In this document: positions 11,492 to 43,415 of the stretch, in pieces
Layout: the number at the start of each line of letters is the position of its first letter
How positions within the stretch are numbered: the first letter of the stretch is position 1
Origin: a virus
IMG/VR virus record: IMGVR_UViG_2799113103_000001
Location: 3,854-67,853 of that record
DNA: 64,000 nucleotides
Direction: 5' to 3' (one strand)
Translations under genes and position numbers: made by a program
The notes under the pieces: generated by a model
What the model saw: the letters and a program-made list of their open reading frames with translations, nothing else
Database searches by the model: none
What the model was told of the DNA's origin: nothing

Positions 11492-11612
11492 GATGTGGGC
11501 GTGTATGTGCTGACCGGGATTTCGCTTTTACACCCGCACCGGGGCACGGGCGACAGGGGTCGAACCTGCATTACCAATTGAGTGATAACCGACCGAGCGT
11601 CCTGCTCACATC
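11492..11612 (-). ncRNA. Y-RNA-like unit B with a T-arm-like hairpin (GCAGGUUCGACCCCUGU) but no recognisable D-arm
   Basis: terminal GAUGUG/CACAUC pairing; conserved GAGCAGGACGC..GGUCGGUUA and CCGGUCAGCACAUACACGCCC strands. Confidence 0.45.
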
Positions 11613-11647
11613 GAAAAGCTATGGAGTTATTGATAATTCGCGTAGGC

Positions 11648-11786
11648 GGCGTGGGCGTGTGATTGCTGACCGACCGTTTAGCGTGCTGCCGTTACACCAC
11701 GGAGCGCCTACGGCGCGCCCGCCGGGATTCGAACCCGGACTACCTCTTTTCGACAGAGATAACCGACCTGCGTCCTGCTCACACCA
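11648..11786 (-). ncRNA. Y-RNA-like unit C with a permuted tRNA-like module
   Basis: T-arm CCGGGUUCGAAUCCCGG; acceptor-like helix GGGCGCGCC-GUA-GGCGCUCC; D-arm-like CGUGGUGUAACGGCAGCACG; terminal GGUGUG/CACGCC pairing. Confidence 0.5.
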
Positions 11787-11805
11787 TCTACTGCGAAGCC
11801 TTGGG

Positions 11806-11944
11806 GATGATGCGGGCGTGTGTGTGCTGACCGGGGTTAAGCGCTCTACCGACTGAGCTACAACCACTTTCGTGGCTGACGGGACTCGAACCCGCGACCT
11901 CTCCATTACAAGTGGTAACCGACCTGCGTCCTGCTCGCATCATC
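11806..11944 (-). ncRNA. Y-RNA-like unit D with a permuted tRNA-like module
   Basis: T-arm GCGGGUUCGAGUCCCGU, then 7-bp acceptor helix CAGCCAC-GAAA-GUGGUUG, then canonical D-arm UAGCUCAGUCGGUAGAGC; terminal GAUGAUGCG/CGCAUCAUC pairing. Confidence 0.55.
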
Positions 11945-11962
11945 AATGTGAAGTTGTATCCG

Positions 11963-12137
11963 GGATGGCGTGGGCGTGTGAGGTGCTTACCGGCGTTGAT
12001 CTTGGATCAATGCATTCGGCCGCTCTGCCACGTTCCGCCCGATGAAAGCCCGAAGCTCTTTCAGGCGGCCCGGCGGGATTCGAACCCGCGATCTGATGAT
12101 TTTCAGATAACCGACTCGCGTCCTGCTCACGCCATCC
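11963..12137 (-). ncRNA. Y-RNA-like unit E with a permuted tRNA-like module
   Basis: T-arm GCGGGUUCGAAUCCCGC; acceptor helix closed by a UUCG-capped hairpin; terminal 10-bp GGAUGGCGUG/CACGCCAUCC pairing; extra hairpin UUGAUC-CAA-GAUCAA. Confidence 0.55.
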
Positions 12138-13031: not shown

Positions 13032-14935
13032 GGCTTCTCGGGGGTGTAGATCACTCGAACGTCAGGGAACCCACCTTCATCCAGGAGATCACGAATTATC
13101 GCCGCACTCGAAGGATTAGCGACGTGCCATTCAAGTGCTGCCCCTTCTGGTAGGGCACGCAGCTGCCTCTGGGCTTCAGCGAGGAGGCCGTTCTCAATGT
13201 TCACTGTCCACGGCTTACCGGGGCTCTCGAACAGGGGCGCGTAGTTGTGTTTCGCGTCGAGGAAAACCTCCTGACCGCCCCGCTCGATGGGTCCGCTGTC
13301 GAACCTGACCACCTGGCCAGTATCGGGGTTCGTCACGACGTACTCCGGTATGCGCCCGTCTGGGGTCCGCTCGATACCCGTGATCTGGGACTGGTAGTCC
13401 ATCCAGGGCTTCTCCGGGCCGCGATTGACGTGCTCCCAACCTGGCGTGGGGTCACCCTTGGTCCAGGTCGGCTCGGGAGTATGGGGCGGCCACCCACCCG
13501 GGTGATGCGGATCTCCCGACGTGTAGTGCTGCCCCACGCTGGGGTCGAACTGATCGGGTGTCGGTAGTTGGTGCTGGGTCAGGGGTGGAGAGTGGTCGCC
13601 GACCGTAGGTGCTGGATGATCGACCGTGGGGGCGAGATGGGTTGCTTCGCTTGGGGGCTCTGCGGTGTGTGCGGGGGCTGGTGTGTCGTGGAGTGCGCCG
13701 GGGGCCGGAAGATCCGGGTGCATGCTGCCCAGATGCGCAGCAGACCCTTCAAGTCCAGCACGGGGCAACAGGCCCTCGGGACCACCTGCCATTAGCGCCC
13801 CACCATCGACCAGCCTTTCCCCGACATATTGGCCGGGATTTTCGATGTTGTGCTTGATGCCTTCGGCTATGTCGGCGCCAGGTGGGGTGGTCATCTGGTG
13901 CTTGAAGGATTCCCATTCACGCCTACCGGCCTCTTCGTTAGCCTCCCAAAAACCCTTGTCGCCCAACCCCAAGCGGTCCCGCAGGTCAGTGAAGGGGGCG
14001 GCCAACTTATCGACGCCCTTGTCGATGCCCTCGGAAATGTTCGTCTTGAAACGCTCCGCAGCCGATGGTTTGTGTTCTTCCGGTGGCTTGTCGTTGCGAT
14101 TGAGGTAGGTGACGCTTTCGCCCAGGCCGCCCACCTTGGTCTTGTCGATGGTGTCCTTGGCGAACGGGCCGTATTGCGGGGCATTCGGGTCGGCAGCAGC
14201 GGTGGCAGCGGTCGGGGTGGTCGCGGGATTTTTGATGTGCTCCAGCTTGTCGCCGAGCGTCCCGGCGCCGGGATCGATGGAGGCCGGATCGGTGGCCTTC
14301 GGGTACCAGTCCTTGTAGAAGTTCGCGGGCTGGGCGCTCGGGTCGCCGGGTTTCGGGGTCGCGGCGTCGCGCAGGGCTTTGCGCCCGTCCACGAGTGCCG
14401 TTTTGGGGTTGGCGCAGCCGGTGATCTTCTGGGCCGCCGCGTCGGCCTGTCCCTTGAGGGTTTGGCAGCCCTTCTCCCACTTGGCGACGTGGTCCTTGAT
14501 CAGGCGTTCGGTTTCGGCGACGTGCTCGCGGTTTCGGGCTATCGAATCGTCGCTCTCGCCTTCGGCCGGGTGGTAGTCGCACTTGAAGTTCTGGTCGATC
14601 GAGACGCCCTTGTCGGCGTGCGCCAGCACCCTCTCGATGAGGTTCTGCCCGCCGGTCAGATTGGGCACTACCTCGTAGGTGATGGTGGCCGTCGCCAGCT
14701 TGACGGCGTCCTCGGCGGTGTCGTCGGTGTTGTCGGAGACGCGGCAATCGGTGGACGCCCCCTCGTAGGACGCGGTCGCGGTGTGCCCGGTCCACTCCGT
14801 GCCATCGGGGCTGCCTGCCCAACGCTTGTAGTCGTCGTAGATTTCCTTGAACTGCTGAGTCTGCGGACGCCACGTATCGACCACCGCCATGTAGTCATTG
14901 GCCTTGACCGCCATGAACTCATCGAGCGTCGTCAC
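13028..14935 (-). CDS. polymorphic toxin: N-terminal WXG100-like domain (YKRWAGSPDG), long Pro/Thr-rich linker, C-terminal PD-(D/E)xK-like nuclease domain (RIPEY..RFDSG..QEVFLDAKHN)
   Basis: WXG motif at about residue 35; low-complexity PT-rich middle; C-terminal E..D..ExxxDAK pattern; start GTG at 14935 or ATG at 14914. Confidence 0.55.
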   Translation of the reverse strand: MTTLDEFMAVKANDYMAVVDTWRPQTQQFKEIYDDYKRWAGSPDGTEWTGHTATASYEGASTDCRVSDNTDDTAEDAVKLATATITYEVVPNLTGGQNLIERVLAHADKGVSIDQNFKCDYHPAEGESDDSIARNREHVAETERLIKDHVAKWEKGCQTLKGQADAAAQKITGCANPKTALVDGRKALRDAATPKPGDPSAQPANFYKDWYPKATDPASIDPGAGTLGDKLEHIKNPATTPTAATAAADPNAPQYGPFAKDTIDKTKVGGLGESVTYLNRNDKPPEEHKPSAAERFKTNISEGIDKGVDKLAAPFTDLRDRLGLGDKGFWEANEEAGRREWESFKHQMTTPPGADIAEGIKHNIENPGQYVGERLVDGGALMAGGPEGLLPRAGLEGSAAHLGSMHPDLPAPGALHDTPAPAHTAEPPSEATHLAPTVDHPAPTVGDHSPPLTQHQLPTPDQFDPSVGQHYTSGDPHHPGGWPPHTPEPTWTKGDPTPGWEHVNRGPEKPWMDYQSQITGIERTPDGRIPEYVVTNPDTGQVVRFDSGPIERGGQEVFLDAKHNYAPLFESPGKPWTVNIENGLLAEAQRQLRALPEGAALEWHVANPSSAAIIRDLLDEGGFPDVRVIYTPEKP

Positions 14936-14945
14936 ACCCGCGCCC

Positions 14946-15266
14946 CTATGCGCGCTTGGGCGGCTGATAGATGGTGGGCAGGCTGCTATAACCGGCCGCC
15001 AGGGAACTCTCCGTGATCGCGAAAGCCTGATGGGCCTCGTCATCGAAGTCAGCGATCGTGTTCAACCGGGCAGCGCCGATCCGCTTCACATCCGCGATAG
15101 CCTTCGACACCCCATGCAGCGCTGCCAACCCCGGATCAGCACCAGCAGGCGCCCCAACATCAGCCGGAATGCTTTTCGTAAGCTCACCGGCAAGTGTCCG
15201 CAGATGCGGGCCGAGCTTGCCCAACGCCGCAAGATCAAACTTGAGAACGTTCTCATCGCCCGACAT
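14946..15266 (-). CDS. small alpha-helical protein (106 aa), possible ESX/WXG-type partner of the toxin; no canonical WXG
   Basis: GAAGGGGG RBS 4 nt before ATG; position directly upstream of the toxin. Confidence 0.4.
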   Translation of the reverse strand: MSGDENVLKFDLAALGKLGPHLRTLAGELTKSIPADVGAPAGADPGLAALHGVSKAIADVKRIGAARLNTIADFDDEAHQAFAITESSLAAGYSSLPTIYQPPKRA

Positions 15267-15359
15267 GACACCCCCTTCGGCAACCAACCGTGTGATTGCC
15301 AGCACACTACAGGAGCAGTAGCGGGTTCCGCAGGGGGAGTTGCCTGGGGTAGGTGTTCG

Positions 15360-37994: not shown

Positions 37995-38855
37995 TCACGC
38001 GAGCACCTGCTGTGTGGCGCCGATAACCTTGGGGAAGTTCGTTCCGTTCCACCCACCCTTGGGCTGCTGGAGCTTCGCGATGTGGCTGCCGGTCATCCAG
38101 CGGTTGAACGCGACAATGAAATAGCCGATGGCTTCGCGGTCAGAAATCTTGAAGCCCTCGCCGCGCACGCGGTCTAAACGGTTACGCAGGGCGAGGATTG
38201 GCGAGCCTGCCTCCAGCCCAGCACCGTCGAGTACTCGCTGGAAGAACACGCTGGTTGTCTCAACCCCATGCCAGTACGCGATGCCTGCGAACACCGCACG
38301 CACCAGGCCGGGCCGCGCCTTCACGCGATTGAAGGCGCCACCCCTGCGGATGAGCTCGAACACCTCGGGGTGCTCGGTGGCCCACTGCACAACATCCGTG
38401 GTCGTGATGGCGCCGGAGGCCTTATCGGTGTACAGCCATCCGCGCTGCCACACCATGAACGTCTTGACAGCGGAAGCGTCCGAGTTCGTGGAGTTGATAC
38501 CGGCGAGGTTCAGCTGATCGGATGCGCTCCGCCGGAGGCCCTGGTCCATGGTGCTCTGCGATTCCGCCGGCAGGCCCCGAACCACAAGCATTTCCACGGG
38601 CACGCCGCACAGGGAGATCGCGTGGAGGCGGTGCTGCCCGTCGAGAAGTGAGCCGTCCAGGCTGAACTTGATCGCCTCGCCGTTGAACTGCCAGCGGCCC
38701 GCCTCCATGTCGGCGGCTAGCTGGAGAATCTTCTTCTCGCTGAGGGGCCGGTTGCGGACGTTGAACTTGAGGTACTCGTCGGCGAGCTTGCCGTCGATCC
38801 TCTCGACATCGGACGTGACCATTTGGTTCCTCCGAAGTGGGATAGCATTCGACAC
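37995..38855 (-). CDS. ParB-like nuclease domain protein (DGQHRL motif)
   Basis: ParB N-terminal domain signature. Confidence 0.5.
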   Translation of the reverse strand: MSNAIPLRRNQMVTSDVERIDGKLADEYLKFNVRNRPLSEKKILQLAADMEAGRWQFNGEAIKFSLDGSLLDGQHRLHAISLCGVPVEMLVVRGLPAESQSTMDQGLRRSASDQLNLAGINSTNSDASAVKTFMVWQRGWLYTDKASGAITTTDVVQWATEHPEVFELIRRGGAFNRVKARPGLVRAVFAGIAYWHGVETTSVFFQRVLDGAGLEAGSPILALRNRLDRVRGEGFKISDREAIGYFIVAFNRWMTGSHIAKLQQPKGGWNGTNFPKVIGATQQVLA

Positions 38856-38876: not shown

Positions 38877-39758
38877 TTACGAGGGCAACTTCTCGATGAC
38901 GCGTTGCAGCGCGTCTCGCGCGCGGATCAGATCGCTTGCGTAGATGGCGATTTGGTCCGCGTTCTTGTCGAAGCGGTCGTCAGCTGCCAGTGCCTCTACC
39001 CGCTTCACCGCCTTCGTCATGGCCGTGGTGGCTTCGGCGAAGGAGTCTGTGATCGGCTTCCGGCGGGGCGTGGGCACGGGAACCGGGACGGGGGCGGCGG
39101 GCGTGGGGAGCACGCAGGACTGGTGCTCGTCGCGCCAGTCCTGGAGTGCCAAGCGGTCTTCGTCTGCCGCCCCGGAGTAGAGGGTCATGGTGGATCCGCA
39201 CACGCACTTGGCGAGGCTCTCCACGGTCTCGAAGGTGGCGGCAGCGGGGGGAGCGCTCACCTCCGAGACCGTGGGAGCGCCCGTGGCCGCCTGCGCGGGG
39301 GGAGGCGCAGCATTGGCAGCCGCCGGGGGCTCATTCGGGAGGTCTGGGACAACCGTCAGCGTGGGCCGTACCGGCTGGGTCGGCTGGTAGGCCTTGCCGT
39401 TGGTGCCGGTGACGGGTGCTACTGAGTCATTTGACTCAGTAGGGGGTGCGGGGAGTTCGCGTTGCACGGTGCTCTGGCTGACCCCGGTTGCCGCCGCGAT
39501 GGCGCGTGTGGAGAGCCCGGAGTCGCGGAGAGACAGCACTACCTCGGCGCGGGTCTCGCGGGGCAGCTTGAACCAGGTGGAGGCGAACTCGCGCTCGCAG
39601 TACACGTCCCAGGACGGATATCCGAGGACGGCCCATGCCCGCTGGGTGTATGCCTTAGCTATGAGGTCCCAGACGCGATTGACGGAGCTGCGGATGCTCT
39701 CGGTGAGTGCCCGCGCGTCACTCGGCGACATCGCGGTCACGGAGACGGCGGACATCAT
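38877..39758 (-). CDS. HTH DNA-binding domain protein 293 aa (LSTRAIAAATGVSQSTVQR)
   Basis: sigma region-4-like HTH. Confidence 0.45.
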   Translation of the reverse strand: MMSAVSVTAMSPSDARALTESIRSSVNRVWDLIAKAYTQRAWAVLGYPSWDVYCEREFASTWFKLPRETRAEVVLSLRDSGLSTRAIAAATGVSQSTVQRELPAPPTESNDSVAPVTGTNGKAYQPTQPVRPTLTVVPDLPNEPPAAANAAPPPAQAATGAPTVSEVSAPPAAATFETVESLAKCVCGSTMTLYSGAADEDRLALQDWRDEHQSCVLPTPAAPVPVPVPTPRRKPITDSFAEATTAMTKAVKRVEALAADDRFDKNADQIAIYASDLIRARDALQRVIEKLPS

Positions 39759-40009
39759 GCGGCCTTGGAGGCAGAGTCGGGCAGAAGAGAGGTGATGGAG
39801 ATGCCCAGAAACCGGGCGATGCCGTCGAGGTCGGCAAGGGTGAAGCTCAATTCCCCTGTGAGTCGGCGACTTACGTACTGCCGGGTGCGGCGGAGGGGAA
39901 CGGCGGCGTCAGTGGCGGTGAAGCGGCGGCGGGCGAGCTCGGCTCGGATGGTCGCACCAACCATTTCATCCAACGTCAGAACGTTACTCACAGCGTAACG
40001 ATAACTCAT
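39755..40009 (-). CDS. Cro-like XRE-family HTH protein 84 aa, divergent from the repressor
   Basis: HTH QYVSRRLTGE; position relative to the repressor. Confidence 0.5.
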   Translation of the reverse strand: MSYRYAVSNVLTLDEMVGATIRAELARRRFTATDAAVPLRRTRQYVSRRLTGELSFTLADLDGIARFLGISITSLLPDSASKAA

Positions 40010-40125
40010 AGCAAGTAACGGCGCTACCGTTTGGAGATACGGCGCGCCGGTTTAAGTGAGGTGTGAGTTACTTTTCCGGTCGTTTAGTTAGCTTTAACTT
40101 TCACCACGACCGCTAGACGGCTATC
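40010..40125. promoter_or_regulatory. divergent repressor/cro switch region with inverted repeats (AGTAAC..GTTACT; AACGG-n5-CCGTT)
   Basis: 116-bp AT-enriched intergenic region between divergent HTH genes. Confidence 0.45.
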
Positions 40126-40581
40126 ATGAGCGCTATGAGTACGTTGTATTCGGTTCCGAACGAGACCCTGTCCCAGACAGTGGCCCGCCGAATCCGGGGG
40201 CTGCTCGGGGAGAAGCGCATCTCTCAGGCCAAGTTCGCCAAGATGCTGGAGACGAACACCGCGAGCATGTCGCGGCGGCTCTCAGGCGAATACCCCATCG
40301 ACCTGGCTGAGGTTGAAAAGTATGCAGCCGCACTGGGGGTGTCCCCAATGCGGCTGTTGACTGGTCGGCCTGACGGCAGTGGCCCGGATGGACCTGATGT
40401 GCGCCCGAAGGGATTCGAACCCCTAACCTTCTGGTTAGGGGTTCCCAAGTCGCCTGCGTCTTCCGATAGCGCCATCACTGATCTGGGCGAGTATCGCAGG
40501 GCGCGACGCCACACGCCAACACGCCACGCACCAGCCGCCTCTCACCCGGACCGTGCGGGCCTCGATGCGGGCGCGGCGTGA
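40126..40581 (+). CDS. immunity repressor, XRE-family HTH, 151 aa virion form ending ..DAGAA; attP core lies inside the ORF
   Basis: HTH ISQAKFAKMLETNTASMSRRLSG; tRNA-3'-end-like sequence at codons about 92-106; Ala-Ala C-terminus. Confidence 0.6.
   Translation: MSAMSTLYSVPNETLSQTVARRIRGLLGEKRISQAKFAKMLETNTASMSRRLSGEYPIDLAEVEKYAAALGVSPMRLLTGRPDGSGPDGPDVRPKGFEPLTFWLGVPKSPASSDSAITDLGEYRRARRHTPTRHAPAASHPDRAGLDAGAA
40401..40445 (-). other. putative attP common core: tRNA 3' end mimic (AGGGGTTCGAATCCCTTCGGGCGCA on the minus strand) with a 9-bp inverted repeat CCCCTAACC-n4-GGTTAGGGG
   Basis: T-loop GGTTCGAATCC plus a 7-nt acceptor strand; no matching 5' half nearby. Confidence 0.45.
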
Positions 40582-40583
40582 GC

Positions 40584-41270
40584 CTAAGCCGCATCCTCGC
40601 CGGACTGGGCGTGCCGCCGGGCTCCGACCACACCGGCCAACGACAGCGCCGTGAAGCTGACGAGCTGGATCGTCCAGACGATTGGGTAGGTGGCCTCCAG
40701 CGACCAGCGAAGCGTGTACATATCGACGCGATCCACGATCATGAGCAGCGGGTAGAGGGCACCAACCAGACCGTAAATTCCGAAGAGCCAGAACAGTACT
40801 CGGTTCTGGTGACCCCTTCTCGCGCCGATGACGGCGGCGATATGGGTGGGCAGCAGACCGGCCGAAAGCAGCCACGAGAACACGTAGCTCGGCGGCCCGG
40901 GGATCGTCTCGACCACGAGGCTCGGGGTGGTGGAGAGGTTGGTGATCAGGTACACGGCGCTCATGCCGATGATCGATGCCCATGTAATCACCAGTGCCCA
41001 AAGAGTATTGAGACCTGCGACCTCGCATGTGGTGCGCGCGAAGATGTACGAGGAAGCCACCATGAGCACGTAGGTGATGATTTGCGACAAGTTCGCCAAG
41101 CCAGTCAATTCCATCAGCGGCGGGTCCAGGGTCGTGACGAGCGCGCTGACGAGCTGCGAAACGCTGGTCACCCACAGCCCGATAGTCAGCAGCCACGGCG
41201 CACGTACGACCGTCCGGTAGAGCGCCGAGAGCGCAAGAACCACAGCGCACGCAGTGCCGAGTGGGTCCAT
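40584..41270 (-). CDS. polytopic membrane protein 228 aa (about 6 TM), convergent with the repressor
   Basis: hydrophobicity pattern. Confidence 0.5.
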   Translation of the reverse strand: MDPLGTACAVVLALSALYRTVVRAPWLLTIGLWVTSVSQLVSALVTTLDPPLMELTGLANLSQIITYVLMVASSYIFARTTCEVAGLNTLWALVITWASIIGMSAVYLITNLSTTPSLVVETIPGPPSYVFSWLLSAGLLPTHIAAVIGARRGHQNRVLFWLFGIYGLVGALYPLLMIVDRVDMYTLRWSLEATYPIVWTIQLVSFTALSLAGVVGARRHAQSGEDAA

Positions 41271-41566
41271 CAGAAACCTTTCTCGAAGATCTCAGCAGCG
41301 GTTGGCCGCCTCTTAGGCCGGTCGGGGGTATCGCGGATAGCTTCCGCGATGACCTCCATGAGATCGGCATCCAGGGCGTTGGCGATCAGGTCTGCGTCGT
41401 CAAGTCCGATTGGCTGCGTACCGGTACGGCGCGACCCCAGCAGCCGCGACACCTTGTCGGCGGTGTAGCCGGTGCGCTTGGCGATGGTGTGCTGGTCGAT
41501 CTGCTTCTTCGCGGCGATGGCGCGGAGGACAGCACTGACGGCACGGGACAAGGGGTGTTGGCGCAC
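41270..41566 (-). CDS. HTH DNA-binding protein 98 aa
   Basis: HTH HTIAKRTGYTADKVSRLL. Confidence 0.45.
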   Translation of the reverse strand: MRQHPLSRAVSAVLRAIAAKKQIDQHTIAKRTGYTADKVSRLLGSRRTGTQPIGLDDADLIANALDADLMEVIAEAIRDTPDRPKRRPTAAEIFEKGF

Positions 41567-41761
41567 GTGTAACAGAATAAACGCAAATTACCAGAATCTC
41601 TGGCGTTTATTAATAACCCCAGCTATCGTCCGTTTTCTAGTCACGTCGGGGAGGCGCTACTTTCAAGCAAGGGGGCTTGCAATAATGTTGGAAAGTCTTG
41701 TGGTACAGGGGTATTCGCAGCACTATATTGGCGCCCACGCCAGGGCGAGGGGGCCGCAACG
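41567..41761. promoter_or_regulatory. AT-rich divergent promoter region with a 9-bp inverted repeat AATAAACGC-n19-GCGTTTATT
   Basis: direct reading. Confidence 0.35.
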
Positions 41762-42727
41762 ATGAGCTCAGGCCCACAACCGCTCCCCGTCCCTCATGAG
41801 TGGCAGCCACTCGTTGACCGGTATCGGCTCGCACTCCAGGCAGCCGGATACCCGAAGACCACCATCGGCACCCGGATGTCCCACATGAACCGGATCGCCA
41901 GATCCTTGGCGGTTCCGCCCGAGGGAGTGACACACGATCTACTCGAGGTGTGGTTCGCGCACCAAACCCAGTGGGCTCAAGAGACCCGGCGCGGCTATCG
42001 CACCTCAGCGACGAAATTCTTTGGCTGGGCCCACGCAGCAGGCCACATACCAATCGACCCATCCACGAAACTGCCGCCAGTGAAGCCGGGGCAACCCACG
42101 CCGAACCCCGCACCTGACCGCATCTGGAAAGAAGCGCTCCTCGCGGCCGACGCCAGAACCACGGTCATGCTGCACCTCGCTTGCGGGGCCGGGCTTCGAC
42201 GGGCCGAAGTCGCACAAGTCCACACCGATGACCTCCGGGAGGGCTTCTCCGGGTACCAGCTGCTCGTGCACGGCAAGGGGGCCAAGGACCGCCTGATCCC
42301 GATCTCAGACGAGATCGCAGCGATGATCCTCGCCGGGCCGGGCGGCCACACCCCCGGTCACGGCAACCGAGGATTCTTGTTCCCTGGGGCCGATGGCGGC
42401 CACCTCTCCGCACGGTGGGTCGGAAAGCTCTGCGCAGCAGCGATGCCGGGGGTTTGGACGATGCATAAGCTGCGGCACCGGTTCTCTACCCGCGCATACC
42501 AGCGCACCCGGAACCTCCGCGCCCTCCAGCAGCTCCTCGGGCATGCGAGCGTCGCCACCACGCAGATCTACACTGCGGTCGATGACGACGAGATGCGGGA
42601 GACGATGCTCGCCGCTACTGACACCAGCCCGCGACCTTGGACGCGATGGGCGAGTTCTGCAGCCGGGGTCGTTGTTGCGGCAAGCGCCGCGACACTAGCC
42701 AGTCATGCGGTGTCGCTAGTACCTTAA
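41762..42727 (+). CDS. int: tyrosine integrase (R..HxxR..Y catalytic C-terminus LRHRFSTRAY...QIYTAVDDD), 321 aa, no arm-binding N-domain
   Basis: tyrosine recombinase signature motifs. Confidence 0.75.
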   Translation: MSSGPQPLPVPHEWQPLVDRYRLALQAAGYPKTTIGTRMSHMNRIARSLAVPPEGVTHDLLEVWFAHQTQWAQETRRGYRTSATKFFGWAHAAGHIPIDPSTKLPPVKPGQPTPNPAPDRIWKEALLAADARTTVMLHLACGAGLRRAEVAQVHTDDLREGFSGYQLLVHGKGAKDRLIPISDEIAAMILAGPGGHTPGHGNRGFLFPGADGGHLSARWVGKLCAAAMPGVWTMHKLRHRFSTRAYQRTRNLRALQQLLGHASVATTQIYTAVDDDEMRETMLAATDTSPRPWTRWASSAAGVVVAASAATLASHAVSLVP

Positions 42728-42732
42728 CCGCT

Positions 42733-43164
42733 ATGGACCTGCGGAAACTCGCCTTGTGTGCGCTCTCAGCGGTGGCGCTGGCTGGATGCAGTCAGCCTGC
42801 CGGCCAAACTGCTGCCGGCGGAAGCACGGTCGTCACGTCGGTGATCGTGTCGGTACCGGCGGCGGCGCGGGAAACTGTCACCGTGACGGCGCAACCAACT
42901 TCCGTAACCCCGGAGGAGGGCGACCCTAACGACCAGGCGTTCATGGCCGTGCTTGTGCAGCACGACATCAACGTGGGCAGCCGCGCGCAGTCGATCGCAC
43001 TGGGACACAGGGTCTGTGATTGGTTCGAGGAGCGGCCAGACAATGACTTGGCCGCCGCCGTGAAGGGCATCGTCCAGAGCTACCCGAAGATCTCCCAGGA
43101 GCAAGCTGCGCTCTTGGCTGGCGCGGCGGGCCGCGCGTATTGCCCGGACACTCGAATCAGGTAG
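42733..43164 (+). CDS. DUF732-like lipoprotein (lipobox LAGC)
   Basis: signal peptide MDLRKLALCALSAVALAGC; Cys pair VCDW..YCPD. Confidence 0.5.
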   Translation: MDLRKLALCALSAVALAGCSQPAGQTAAGGSTVVTSVIVSVPAAARETVTVTAQPTSVTPEEGDPNDQAFMAVLVQHDINVGSRAQSIALGHRVCDWFEERPDNDLAAAVKGIVQSYPKISQEQAALLAGAAGRAYCPDTRIR

Positions 43165-43182: not shown

Positions 43183-43219
43183 GAGGGGGTCAGCCCGTAA
43201 CGGGCTGACCCCCTCGCAC
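43183..43219. terminator. bidirectional stem-loop terminator GGGGGTCAGCCCG-TAAC-GGGCTGACCCCC between convergent genes
   Basis: 13-bp perfect GC-rich stem. Confidence 0.5.
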
Positions 43220-43233
43220 AGCGGGACCTTCTA

Positions 43234-43383
43234 ATCGAGGTCGGTGACCCCGCACTCCGCCAGAACCTCACGGGCGACACGAGCGTCCTCGCTCCCGTCC
43301 GGTGCCTCGGCGAGCACCTTGCGCGCCCACCTGATGAGGCCTGCGGTGTCCGGTGCCACGTTCAACGTGTTAGCGGTCATTTC
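43234..43383 (-). CDS. small protein 49 aa (not in the ORF track)
   Basis: own translation MTANTLNVAPDTAGLIRW... Confidence 0.3.
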
Positions 43384-43415
43384 TCTCAATTCCCTTCCAG
43401 TTCTTGCTTGTCTGG

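What the first reader, a model, noticed from the sequence alone, without database searches (positions are those of the whole stretch)
40010..42727. Integration-dependent immunity layout: attP core with a tRNA 3' end mimic lies inside the repressor ORF upstream of a small tyrosine integrase
The 151-aa XRE-type repressor (40126-40581, C-terminus ..DAGAA) is divergent from a cro-like gene. On the opposite strand at 40401-40445 it contains AGGGG-TTCGAAT-CCCTT-CGGGCGC-A. That is a T-arm plus a 7-nt acceptor 3' strand, with no 5' half anywhere nearby. It overlaps a 9-bp inverted repeat, CCCCTAACC-n4-GGTTAGGGG, which is typical of core-type Int sites around a crossover.

A 321-aa tyrosine integrase with an Ala-rich C-terminal tail lies 1.2 kb downstream on the same strand.

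Integration at this core would truncate the repressor to about 95-105 aa and remove its Ala-Ala tail. That is the mechanism known from BPs/Brujita-type mycobacteriophages. The arrangement is described, but it is recognisable here purely from sequence, with two extra minus-strand genes inserted between rep and int.
Basis: partly seen in the sequence, partly recalled or inferred. Interest (0 to 1): 0.7.

Follow-up and report, generated by a model that had tools for sequence, protein, structure and literature searches.

The report
Phage attachment site inside its repressor gene
A temperate phage of the Mycobacterium abscessus group carries its chromosomal integration site inside its own repressor gene, so integrating into a host arginine tRNA gene shortens the repressor from 151 to 102 residues; this is a confirmed new example of a switch already described for mycobacteriophage BPs, not a new mechanism.

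Summary

**Attachment site.** Window 40399-40433, inside the 151-aa repressor ORF, is the exact reverse complement of the last 35 nt of actinobacterial tRNA-Arg(ACG). The identical core lies inside annotated immunity repressors of phages Bipper and UmaThurman and of the M. abscessus MabK prophages. BPs has a 2-nt variant.

**Integrase and repressor.** The 321-aa integrase is 57% identical to BPs gp32. The repressor is 32% identical to BPs gp33.

**Lysogen junctions.**
- attL: L133 is about 93% identical to the window up to exactly 40433. An intact tRNA-Arg follows. The first host base turns TGG into TGA, giving a 102-aa repressor identical to window residues 1-102.
- attR: L137, from M. abscessus subsp. 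massiliense, is 98-99% identical down to exactly 40399, then host genes follow.

**Corrections and additions.**
- The inverted repeat is a perfect 12-4-12 palindrome, not 9 bp.
- The divergent "cro" is a paralog of the repressor, not a BPs gp34 homolog.
- The two inserted genes encode an HTH protein and a 7-TM protein. Their function is unknown, and homologs of the 7-TM protein were found only in Mycobacteroides or unnamed sources.
- Int lacks an -AA tag.

**Verdict.** This is a new member of a known kind. Degradation of the full-length repressor is inferred, not shown.

The parts
39755..40009 (-). Divergent 84-aa XRE-type HTH gene, the positional 'cro'. It ends ..SASKAA.
   Evidence: ORF. Pfam HTH_31. 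PHROG 4583. It is a paralog of the Rep N-terminus (37% identity over 76 aa, E 3e-7). It has no BLASTP similarity to BPs gp34 or to the MabK, Bipper or UmaThurman 'excise' proteins.
40010..40125 (.). rep-cro intergenic control region. It holds two 15-nt direct repeats, ACGGCGCTACCGTTT (40018-40032) and ACGGCGCGCCGGTTT (40039-40053), spaced 21 bp apart; these are candidate operators. A sigma-70-like match TTCACC-16-TATCAT lies at 40100-40127.
   Evidence: Repeats. The motif has 4 matches in the window against 0.53 expected. Promoter-like site. The region is almost invariant in six relatives that are only 85-93% identical elsewhere. Operator function is inferred.
40126..40581 (+). Viral-form immunity repressor, 151 aa, ending DAGAA.
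   Evidence: 32% identical to BPs gp33. Homologs P0001 to P0004.
40126..40431 (+). Codons 1-102, the predicted prophage-form repressor. Codon 103 (TGG, 40432-40434) becomes TGA at attL.
   Evidence: The L133 ORF 10894-11202 is 102 aa and identical to window residues 1-102. L132 and L128 show the same stop. 119 of 120 genomic core copies are preceded by T, which gives TGA.
40399..40433 (-). attP common core, 35 bp. It is the reverse complement of 4 nt of the anticodon stem, the variable loop, the T arm, the 3' acceptor strand, the discriminator A and 1 further nt of tRNA-Arg(ACG).
   Evidence: Alignment with four other phages and their attL/attR ends. Genome scan. tRNA calls. tRNA sequence. Homology breakpoints fall at exactly 40433 (attL) and 40399 (attR).
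40417..40444 (.). Perfect 12-4-12 palindrome, GAACCCCTAACC-TTCT-GGTTAGGGGTTC. The left arm is tRNA-derived and the right arm is phage-specific. It is the proposed pair of Int core-type half-sites, with the crossover region around CTTCTG (40428-40433).
   Evidence: I4. Dyad symmetry about the same axis gives 9-13 of 16 positions in the six attP sites that share the identical core, and 7 of 16 in both host attB and BPs. Binding and cleavage positions are inferred.
40435..40578 (+). C-terminal tail, residues 104-151, separated from rep by integration. It remains at attR.
   Evidence: attR junctions in L135, L136, L137 and L139 retain it. The tail varies in sequence but stays open in relatives.
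40584..41270 (-). Inserted cargo gene 1: a 228-aa, 7-helix membrane protein of unknown function.
   Evidence: No hit in Pfam, PHROG, PADLOC or NCBIfam. No tblastn hit in 50,697 phage records. The named homologs are all Mycobacteroides; the others come from unnamed runs or metagenomes. AF2 model pLDDT 82. Only generic 7-TM fold matches.
41270..41566 (-). Inserted cargo gene 2: a 98-aa HTH protein.
   Evidence: Weak Pfam matches to MarR_2, HTH_31 and HTH_26. No phage tblastn hit. Not similar to prophiGD43A-5 gp116. Conserved together with gene 1 in L129, L130, L137 and L139; L134-L136 align with the window across this region.
41567..41761 (.). Low-G+C intergenic region between the HTH gene and int. 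It has the inverted repeat AATAAACGC-n18-GCGTTTATT (41576-41611) and a conserved block at about 41622-41657. It probably holds divergent promoters, including int's own.
   Evidence: (G+C 0.52). Promoter function is inferred.
41762..42727 (+). Tyrosine integrase, 321 aa, Xer-like, with no arm-binding domain. It has a hydrophobic, Ala-rich C-terminal tail ending ..SLVP.
   Evidence: PF00589. 57% identical to BPs gp32. 57-64% identical to the Ints of Bipper, UmaThurman, prophiGD43A-5 and L127, with R147, K172, H235, R238, H261 and Y270 invariant. XerA/XerC models cover residues 20-281.

Best explanation
This is a BPs-type integration-dependent immunity cassette in a temperate siphovirus of the Mycobacteroides (M. 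abscessus-chelonae) group, seen here in its unintegrated, attP-intact form.

**Shown from sequence**
- The repressor gene contains the attP common core (40399-40433), which is identical to the 3' end of host tRNA-Arg(ACG).
- The linked Xer-like tyrosine integrase belongs to the same family as BPs gp32.
- In lysogens of near-identical phages, recombination has occurred within this core.
- At attL the tRNA is rebuilt with a phage-derived 3' end. The first host base converts repressor codon 103 (TGG) into TGA, giving a 102-aa protein.
- The 48-codon tail, the two cargo genes and int end up at attR.

**Inferred by homology with BPs and the MabK prophages**
- The 151-aa viral form is unstable because of its C-terminal ..GAA tail, which resembles an ssrA tag.
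- The 102-aa form is stable, binds the repeats in the 40010-40125 control region, shuts off the divergent lytic promoter and confers immunity.
- Lysogeny can therefore be established only after integration.

**Inferred from the anatomy**
- Int acts on a simple core site formed by the 12-4-12 palindrome, with strand exchange around CTTCTG at the anticodon-stem edge of the core.
- Convergent genes separate int from rep, so int is probably transcribed from its own promoter in 41567-41761.
For: **Core and tRNA**
- The core matches exactly in at least 120 actinobacterial genome contigs. 97 of the 120 copies carry the tRNA's 5' half, and ARAGORN called tRNA-Arg(ACG) in 14 of 16 loci scanned (sequence).
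- The same 35-bp core sits inside annotated immunity repressors of Bipper gp51, UmaThurman gp36, prophiGD43A-5 and prophiT37-1. The two prophage records begin and end at the core.

**Homology to the prototype**
- Int is 57% identical to BPs gp32, E 3e-122.
- Int is 57-64% identical to the Ints of the other phages that share this core.
- Rep aligns with BPs gp33 across the core-encoded motif.
- The BPs attP core differs at only 2 nt.

**Junctions**
- attL in L133 and L132: homology to the window (93% and 85%) ends at exactly 40433, followed by intact tRNA-Arg(ACG) and tRNA-Ser(GCT).
- Rep in L133 is 102 aa, identical to window residues 1-102, and ends at a junction-made TGA.
- attR in L137 (M. 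abscessus subsp. massiliense, 98-98.8% identical), L139, L135 and L136: homology ends at exactly 40399, then host genes follow.
- 119 of 120 genomic core copies would create the TGA.

**Degradation tag**
- An -AA C-terminus is also present in the viral-form repressors of prophiGD43A-5 and Bipper.

**Literature**
- PMC3694055, PMC4557955 and PMC8092301 describe this mechanism for BPs and for MabK. For MabK they state that the stop codon is made by the first bacterial base.
Against: - No experiment here shows that the 151-aa form is degraded or inactive.
- Close relatives (L129, L134) end in -VA rather than -AA, L127 ends ..SPF, and the prophiT37-1 viral form is only one residue longer than its prophage form. 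A tail-borne degron is therefore not universal in this lineage.
- Int does not end in -AA.
- The positional cro is not homologous to BPs gp34.
- int is 1.2 kb from rep, behind two convergent genes, so the rep-int operon logic of BPs cannot apply unchanged.
- L127 (M. salmoniphilum) shows a window-like rep N-terminus and core joined, unsplit, to a different phage's tail and int inside a 532-kb contig. This is unexplained. It may be a tandem lysogen or a recombinant.
Confidence: 0.87

Rival explanations
1. The site really is the attP, and integration truncates Rep, but immunity does not depend on integration. Under this reading both Rep forms are stable and active. The overlap of attP with the 3' end of rep is then only a compact gene arrangement, and the lysis/lysogeny decision is made elsewhere.
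For: C-terminal tails are poorly conserved and end differently in close relatives: -VA in L129 and L134, -PF in L127. prophiT37-1 has essentially no tail. Both forms of BPs gp33 bind DNA similarly in vitro (PMC4557955, abstract).
Against: The ORF stays open for 16-49 codons beyond the core in six of seven independent lineages despite sequence divergence. The window, prophiGD43A-5 and Bipper all end in -AA. In BPs the long form is inactive in vivo because of degradation, and an integrase-defective mutant cannot lysogenise (PMC3694055). The window's Int and Rep are homologs of the BPs proteins.
Confidence: 0.1
2. The tRNA-like stretch is a relic of an old recombination event or a chance resemblance. 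The phage would then use another site, or be maintained extrachromosomally, with the integrase acting elsewhere.
For: The window shows attP intact. A ParB-like nuclease-domain gene lies nearby at 37995-38855 (by analogy with prophiGD43A-5 gp4). L127 shows an unsplit rep inside a chromosomal contig.
Against: Exact attL and attR junctions of 93-99% identical phages lie at the two ends of the core. The 35-nt exact identity has zero chance expectation. No second integrase or att-like repeat was seen near the locus. All Ints associated with this core are one family.
Confidence: 0.02

Closest known systems
Mycobacteriophage BPs integration-dependent immunity cassette: gp32 Int, gp33 Rep, gp34 Cro (Broussard et al. 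2013; PMC3694055, PMC4557955)
   Same: - attP lies inside rep, at the homologous position: the core encodes VRPxGFEPxTF in both.
- The core is the 3' end of a tRNA-Arg-type sequence and differs at 2 of 35 nt.
- Int is 57% identical.
- Rep is 32% identical.
- The prophage form is of almost equal length (102 vs 103 aa).
- There is a divergent HTH gene and a short control region.
   Different: - 49 residues are removed rather than 33.
- The cro position is occupied by an XRE-type paralog of Rep, not a gp34 homolog.
- Two convergent cargo genes (1.2 kb) separate rep from int, whereas in BPs they overlap.
- Int is 321 aa rather than 397.
- The BPs 12-bp operator CGACATATGTCG is absent; different repeats are present.
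Cluster MabK M. abscessus prophages prophiGD43A-5 and prophiT37-1, attB-1 (Dedrick et al. 2021, PMC8092301; PMC9934374)
   Same: - Identical 35-bp core and the same host tRNA.
- The stop codon is made by the first bacterial base.
- Int is 63% identical and lacks an -AA tag.
- The viral Rep of prophiGD43A-5 ends in -AA.
- Genome architecture is shared, with about 78% nucleotide identity in patches.
   Different: - The repressor N-terminal domain differs, which implies a different immunity specificity. Outside the core, the 39700-42800 query gave no nucleotide match.
- MabK has a gp34-like 'excise' gene where the window has a Rep paralog.
- In MabK, int lies 125 bp after rep.
- The HTH/7-TM cargo pair is absent from all 50,697 phage records searched.
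Mycobacterium phage Bipper (gp50-52) and Gordonia phage UmaThurman (gp35-37; PMC4929511)
   Same: - Identical core inside the annotated immunity repressor.
- Int is 57% identical.
- rep and int are on the same strand.
- Bipper Rep ends in -AA and UmaThurman Int ends in -AA.
   Different: - The genomes and hosts are otherwise unrelated.
- int is adjacent to rep.
- A gp34-like 'excise' gene is present.

Membership tests
Integration-dependent immunity system (BPs/Brujita/Charlie type) | The attP common core lies inside the repressor coding sequence. | tested here: met
   The core at 40399-40433 lies within ORF 40126-40581. It is exactly identical to the tRNA-Arg(ACG) 3' end.
Integration-dependent immunity system (BPs/Brujita/Charlie type) | Integration yields a C-terminally truncated repressor through a stop codon at attL. 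| tested here: met
   L133 attL has a 102-aa ORF identical to window Rep 1-102, with TGA made by the first host base. L132 and L128 show the same.
Integration-dependent immunity system (BPs/Brujita/Charlie type) | A linked tyrosine integrase of the gp32 family lies downstream of rep on the same strand. | tested here: met
   57% identity to BPs gp32, E 3e-122, on the same strand. However, it is separated from rep by two convergent genes. PMC8092301 reports a 3-5 gene separation in some systems.
Integration-dependent immunity system (BPs/Brujita/Charlie type) | The integrase is simple, with no arm-binding domain, and no separate xis/RDF is present. | tested here: met
   XerA/XerC models cover residues 20-281 of 321. 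No homolog of gp34/'excise' proteins is present in the window. No conserved arm-type repeats flank the core. Absence of an unrecognised RDF cannot be proven.
Integration-dependent immunity system (BPs/Brujita/Charlie type) | The viral-form repressor carries a C-terminal degradation tag (ssrA-like -AA) and is unstable or inactive. | not testable with these tools
   The sequence ends ..DAGAA, and -AA is also present in prophiGD43A-5 and Bipper. Close relatives end in -VA. Instability needs experiments.
Integration-dependent immunity system (BPs/Brujita/Charlie type) | Int carries a C-terminal degradation tag. | tested here: inconclusive
   There is no -AA; the protein ends ..HAVSLVP after a hydrophobic, Ala-rich segment that aligns with the BPs gp32 tail. 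PMC8092301 states that MabK Ints lack ssrA tags.
Integration-dependent immunity system (BPs/Brujita/Charlie type) | A divergently transcribed cro (gp34 family) lies across a roughly 100-200 bp control region. | tested here: not met
   A positional equivalent is present (39755-40009, with a 116-bp intergenic region). It has no similarity to gp34 or its homologs and is instead a paralog of Rep. This fails as homology but passes as layout.
Integration-dependent immunity system (BPs/Brujita/Charlie type) | The truncated repressor binds operators at the early lytic promoter and confers immunity. | not testable with these tools
   Candidate repeats lie at 40018-40053, and the control region is invariant in relatives. 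There are no binding data.
Phage attP sites that target tRNA 3' ends | The core is identical to the 3' part of a host tRNA gene, so the tRNA is rebuilt at attL. | tested here: met
   ARAGORN calls an intact tRNA-Arg(ACG) across the junction in L132 and L133.
Cluster MabK (M. abscessus prophages) | Extensive nucleotide or gene-content similarity to prophiGD43A-5 and prophiT37-1. | tested here: inconclusive
   About 78% identity over only 10-31% of each 25-kb query. The phage is related, but cluster membership by gene-content criteria was not computed.

The most novel reading that the evidence does not exclude
The window may be a natural intermediate in the evolutionary path proposed by Broussard and Hatfull (PMC3694055, Fig. 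1B). In that path, an integration-dependent switch acquires an independent int promoter.

Three features point this way:
- int has been uncoupled from P_rep by an inserted convergent HTH/7-TM cassette.
- int faces a conserved, low-G+C divergent control region (41567-41761), so the 98-aa HTH protein could regulate it.
- Cro has been replaced by a Rep paralog that also ends in -AA, and no RDF-like gene is present.
Probability: 0.25. Interest if true: 0.45.

Novelty: new member of a known kind. Interest (0 to 1): 0.3.

Why it matters
- **Recognition from sequence.** An integration-dependent immunity switch can be recognised and fully reconstructed (attP, attB, attL, attR and both repressor forms) from sequence alone.
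- **Practical use.** For M. abscessus phage therapy and genetics, only the 102-aa gene, not the annotated 151-aa ORF, should be expected to confer immunity or serve as a selectable marker.
- **Integration hotspot.** Among the 120 genomic core copies, 23 lack the conserved 5' half of the tRNA. This marks the tRNA-Arg(ACG) 3' end as a heavily used integration hotspot across Actinomycetota.
- **Variations worth testing.** The Rep-paralog 'cro', the cargo genes between rep and int, and Int without an -AA tag offer natural variants for testing which parts of the BPs circuit are essential.
- **Limit.** None of this overturns current understanding.

Tried and rejected
1. I first guessed the tRNA was Arg(CCU), because CCTAA precedes CCAGA in the phage sequence. 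ARAGORN and the genomic sequences show Arg(ACG). The CCCCTAAC stretch is the phage-specific palindrome arm, not an anticodon loop.
2. I tested whether the 98-aa HTH protein is a relocated copy of prophiGD43A-5 gp116, which is also 98 aa. There is no similarity.
3. Function of the two cargo genes:
   - Pfam gave nothing for the 228-aa protein and only weak HTH matches for the 98-aa protein.
   - PHROGs, PADLOC, NCBIfam and tblastn against the phage records gave nothing for either.
   - AF2 plus Foldseek on the 228-aa protein gave only generic 7-TM matches to rhodopsins/GPCRs and weak matches to Gordonia phage membrane proteins.
   - The afdb50 library was unavailable.
4. I looked for arm-type Int sites. 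The short direct repeats near the core (D2, D4) are not conserved in L129, so I treat them as chance.
5. Broussard et al. 2013 (PMC3557535) is not held. I relied on the authors' addendum and later papers instead.
6. The BPs RefSeq accession was not in the collection. EU568876 was used.
7. The L127 hybrid could not be resolved.


Full report
**1. What is there**

- A 151-aa ORF lies at 40126-40581 (+). It has helix-turn-helix matches (Pfam BetR, HTH_26, HTH_3; PHROG 2328 'transcriptional repressor', E 4e-19) and ends ..LDAGAA.
- It diverges from an 84-aa HTH ORF at 39755-40009 (-) across a 116-bp gap.
- A 321-aa tyrosine recombinase (PF00589, E 4.7e-22) lies at 41762-42727 (+).
- Two minus-strand ORFs of 228 aa and 98 aa fill the 1.18 kb between rep and int.
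- The minus strand of 40400-40424 reads as a T arm, a 7-nt 3' acceptor strand and a discriminator A.
- ARAGORN finds no tRNA in the 64-kb window, and Rfam finds nothing in 39500-43000. The piece is therefore a 3' fragment.
It is a perfect 12-4-12 palindrome: GAACCCCTAACC (40417-40428), TTCT, GGTTAGGGGTTC (40433-40444).

**2. The fragment is the 3' end of tRNA-Arg(ACG) and is shared by unrelated phages**

A megablast of 39700-42800 against 50,697 phage records matched only a stretch of about 36-46 bp (window 40398-40444).
- Six of the eight hit records are annotated phage or prophage records, representing four phages. In each the match lies inside an annotated immunity repressor: Bipper gp51, UmaThurman gp36, and the M. 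abscessus prophages prophiGD43A-5 and prophiT37-1.
- The other two hits are unannotated bacteriophage records from human fecal samples.
- In Bipper, UmaThurman and both prophages, a tyrosine integrase follows on the same strand.
- The two prophage records begin and end with this sequence, so it is their attL/attR core. Their annotation says attP lies within the repressor.
- Aligning all copies gives an invariant 35-bp core, window 40399-40433.

- ARAGORN called tRNA-Arg(ACG) at the match in 14 of the 16 loci scanned, usually next to tRNA-Ser(GCT) (sequence).
- 97 of the 120 copies are preceded by the conserved 5' half of the tRNA. The other 23 lack it and look like att remnants of other elements. 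This tRNA end is therefore an integration hotspot.

**3. Homology to the prototype**
- The window's Int is 57% identical to BPs gp32 (E 3e-122).
- It is 57-64% identical to the Ints of every other phage carrying this core. The catalytic residues R147, K172, H235, R238, H261 and Y270 are invariant.
- Xer-type models cover residues 20-281, which leaves no room for an arm-binding domain.
- Rep is 32% identical to BPs gp33. The alignment runs through the core-encoded motif, VRPKGFEPLTF against VRPEGFEPPTF.
- The BPs attP differs from the window core at 2 nt.

**4. Lysogen junctions**

A junction-specific pattern (rep N-terminal side, core, tRNA 5' half) hit two IMG/VR prophages taken from isolate genomes.
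- L133 is about 93% identical to the window, and L132 about 85%, over 8-13 kb. Homology ends at exactly 40433.
- An intact tRNA-Arg(ACG) and tRNA-Ser(GCT) follow.
- The host flank is 90% identical to M. franklinii.
- The repressor ORF in L133 is 102 aa, identical to window residues 1-102. It stops at a TGA made from phage TG plus the first host base.
- 119 of 120 genomic core copies have the T that creates this stop.
- A 38%-identical repressor (P0004, locus L128) shows the same junction.

On the other side:
- L137 (M. abscessus subsp. massiliense GCA_900133135.1) is 98-98.8% identical to the window from 51459 down to exactly 40399, then continues into host genes.
- L139 (M. chelonae), L135 and L136 behave the same way.

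**5. Mechanism**

Shown: attP lies in rep, attB is tRNA-Arg(ACG), and integration gives Rep-102 and moves the 48-codon tail, the two cargo genes and int to attR.

Inferred from BPs (PMC3694055, PMC4557955) and the MabK prophages (PMC8092301):
- The full-length form is degraded through its C-terminal -AA tail.
- The short form is the stable immunity repressor.
- Integration therefore sets the lysis/lysogeny outcome.

Viral-form tails end in -AA in the window, prophiGD43A-5 and Bipper. They end in -VA in the close relatives L129 and L134. prophiT37-1 has almost no tail. The degron is plausible here but is not universal.

The right arm of the palindrome is phage-specific.
- Dyad symmetry about the same axis is 9-13 of 16 positions in the six attP sites that share the identical core.
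- It is 7 of 16 in both host attB and BPs.
- With a simple Xer-like Int, I infer two core-type half-sites flanking an overlap of about 6-7 bp (CTTCTG, 40428-40433). That overlap sits at the very edge of attP/attB identity.

Candidate operators are two 15-nt repeats, 21 bp apart, at 40018-40053. The control region is nearly invariant in relatives that differ by 7-15% elsewhere.

**6. Differences from the known systems**
- *The 'cro'.* The 84-aa gene has no similarity to BPs gp34 or to its homologs in MabK, Bipper and UmaThurman. It is a paralog of the Rep N-terminus (37% over 76 aa) and also ends in -AA. No gp34/'excise' homolog exists in the window.
- *The cargo pair.* The 98-aa HTH and 228-aa 7-TM genes are conserved as a pair in L129, L130, L137 and L139. 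L134-L136 align with the window across this region.
  - They are absent from all phage records searched.
  - Named homologs of the 228-aa protein are all Mycobacteroides.
  - The 228-aa protein matches no family in any of the four libraries. The 98-aa protein has only weak Pfam HTH matches.
  - The AF2 model (pLDDT 82) gives only generic 7-TM fold matches.
  - Because they converge on rep, int probably has its own promoter in the low-G+C, partly conserved 41567-41761 region.
  - PMC8092301 already notes systems in which int is separated from rep by 3-5 genes.
- *Int.* It lacks an -AA tag, as reported for MabK.

**7. Verdict**

This is a new member, with minor variations, of a well-described kind. 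It would not surprise a specialist, though the sequence-only prediction was accurate down to the length of the truncated protein.

The window (G+C 63.8%) is the attP-intact form of a phage of about 75 kb. Metagenome contigs of 75.6-75.8 kb show the same layout.

Noticed in passing
window 11500-12120 (- strand): A cluster of tRNA-like modules. A second tRNA-3'-end-like 22-mer lies at 11714-11735. Rfam gives a sub-threshold YrlA (Y RNA-like) match at 11825-11925 (36.9 bits, E 4e-6) and a tRNA-model match at 11714-11867 (31.2 bits, gathering 29) with a long insert. ARAGORN calls no tRNA. The adjacent DNA matches the prophiGD43A-5 region that includes a 'Ro-like RNA binding protein'. This is probably a phage-borne Ro/Y-RNA module.
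   Followed up: partly
L127:10001-11390 (M. salmoniphilum GCA_041644795.1, contig JAPDRC010000004.1): The rep N-terminal part and core are window-like (87% over 10 kb to the left). Immediately after the core, the sequence switches to a different phage: a different 16-aa tail, and an Int whose gene is about 71% identical in nucleotide sequence and 64% in protein. All of this is contiguous inside a 532-kb contig. It is either a tandem double lysogen at tRNA-Arg, as described for T36 in PMC9934374, or a recombinant created by Int at the core.
   Followed up: partly
L007-L126 (genome scan hits): 23 of 120 exact core copies lack the conserved 5' half of the tRNA. Most of these extend identity into the anticodon (CTACGGAT + core). 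They look like att remnants of other integrated elements, so this tRNA-Arg(ACG) end appears to be a widely used integration hotspot.
   Followed up: partly
window 39755-40009 (-) vs 40135-40359 (+): The divergent 'cro' is a paralog of the repressor's DNA-binding domain (37% identity, E 3e-7). It also ends in -KAA.
   Followed up: partly
window 42637-43164 (+): A DUF732 protein (Pfam E 6.6e-14) lies immediately downstream of int. In lysogens it sits close to attR. It is conserved in L129, L130, L137 and L139.
   Followed up: no
window 43218-43414: A segment of about 200 bp, between the DUF732 gene and the 395-aa minus-strand gene, fails to align in six close relatives that are otherwise collinear: L129, L130, L134, L135, L136 and L137.
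   Followed up: no
window 14278-15321: This stretch is 78-80% identical to the polymorphic-toxin / WXG-100 cassette ends of many M. abscessus prophages from other clusters. The cassette appears to be exchangeable, as discussed in PMC9934374.
   Followed up: no
L005/L006 (prophiT37-1 reconstructed attP): In prophiT37-1 the reconstructed viral-form repressor stops one codon after the core (..PLTFC*). The viral and prophage forms therefore differ by a single residue. Its palindrome has a 5-nt spacer.
   Followed up: no
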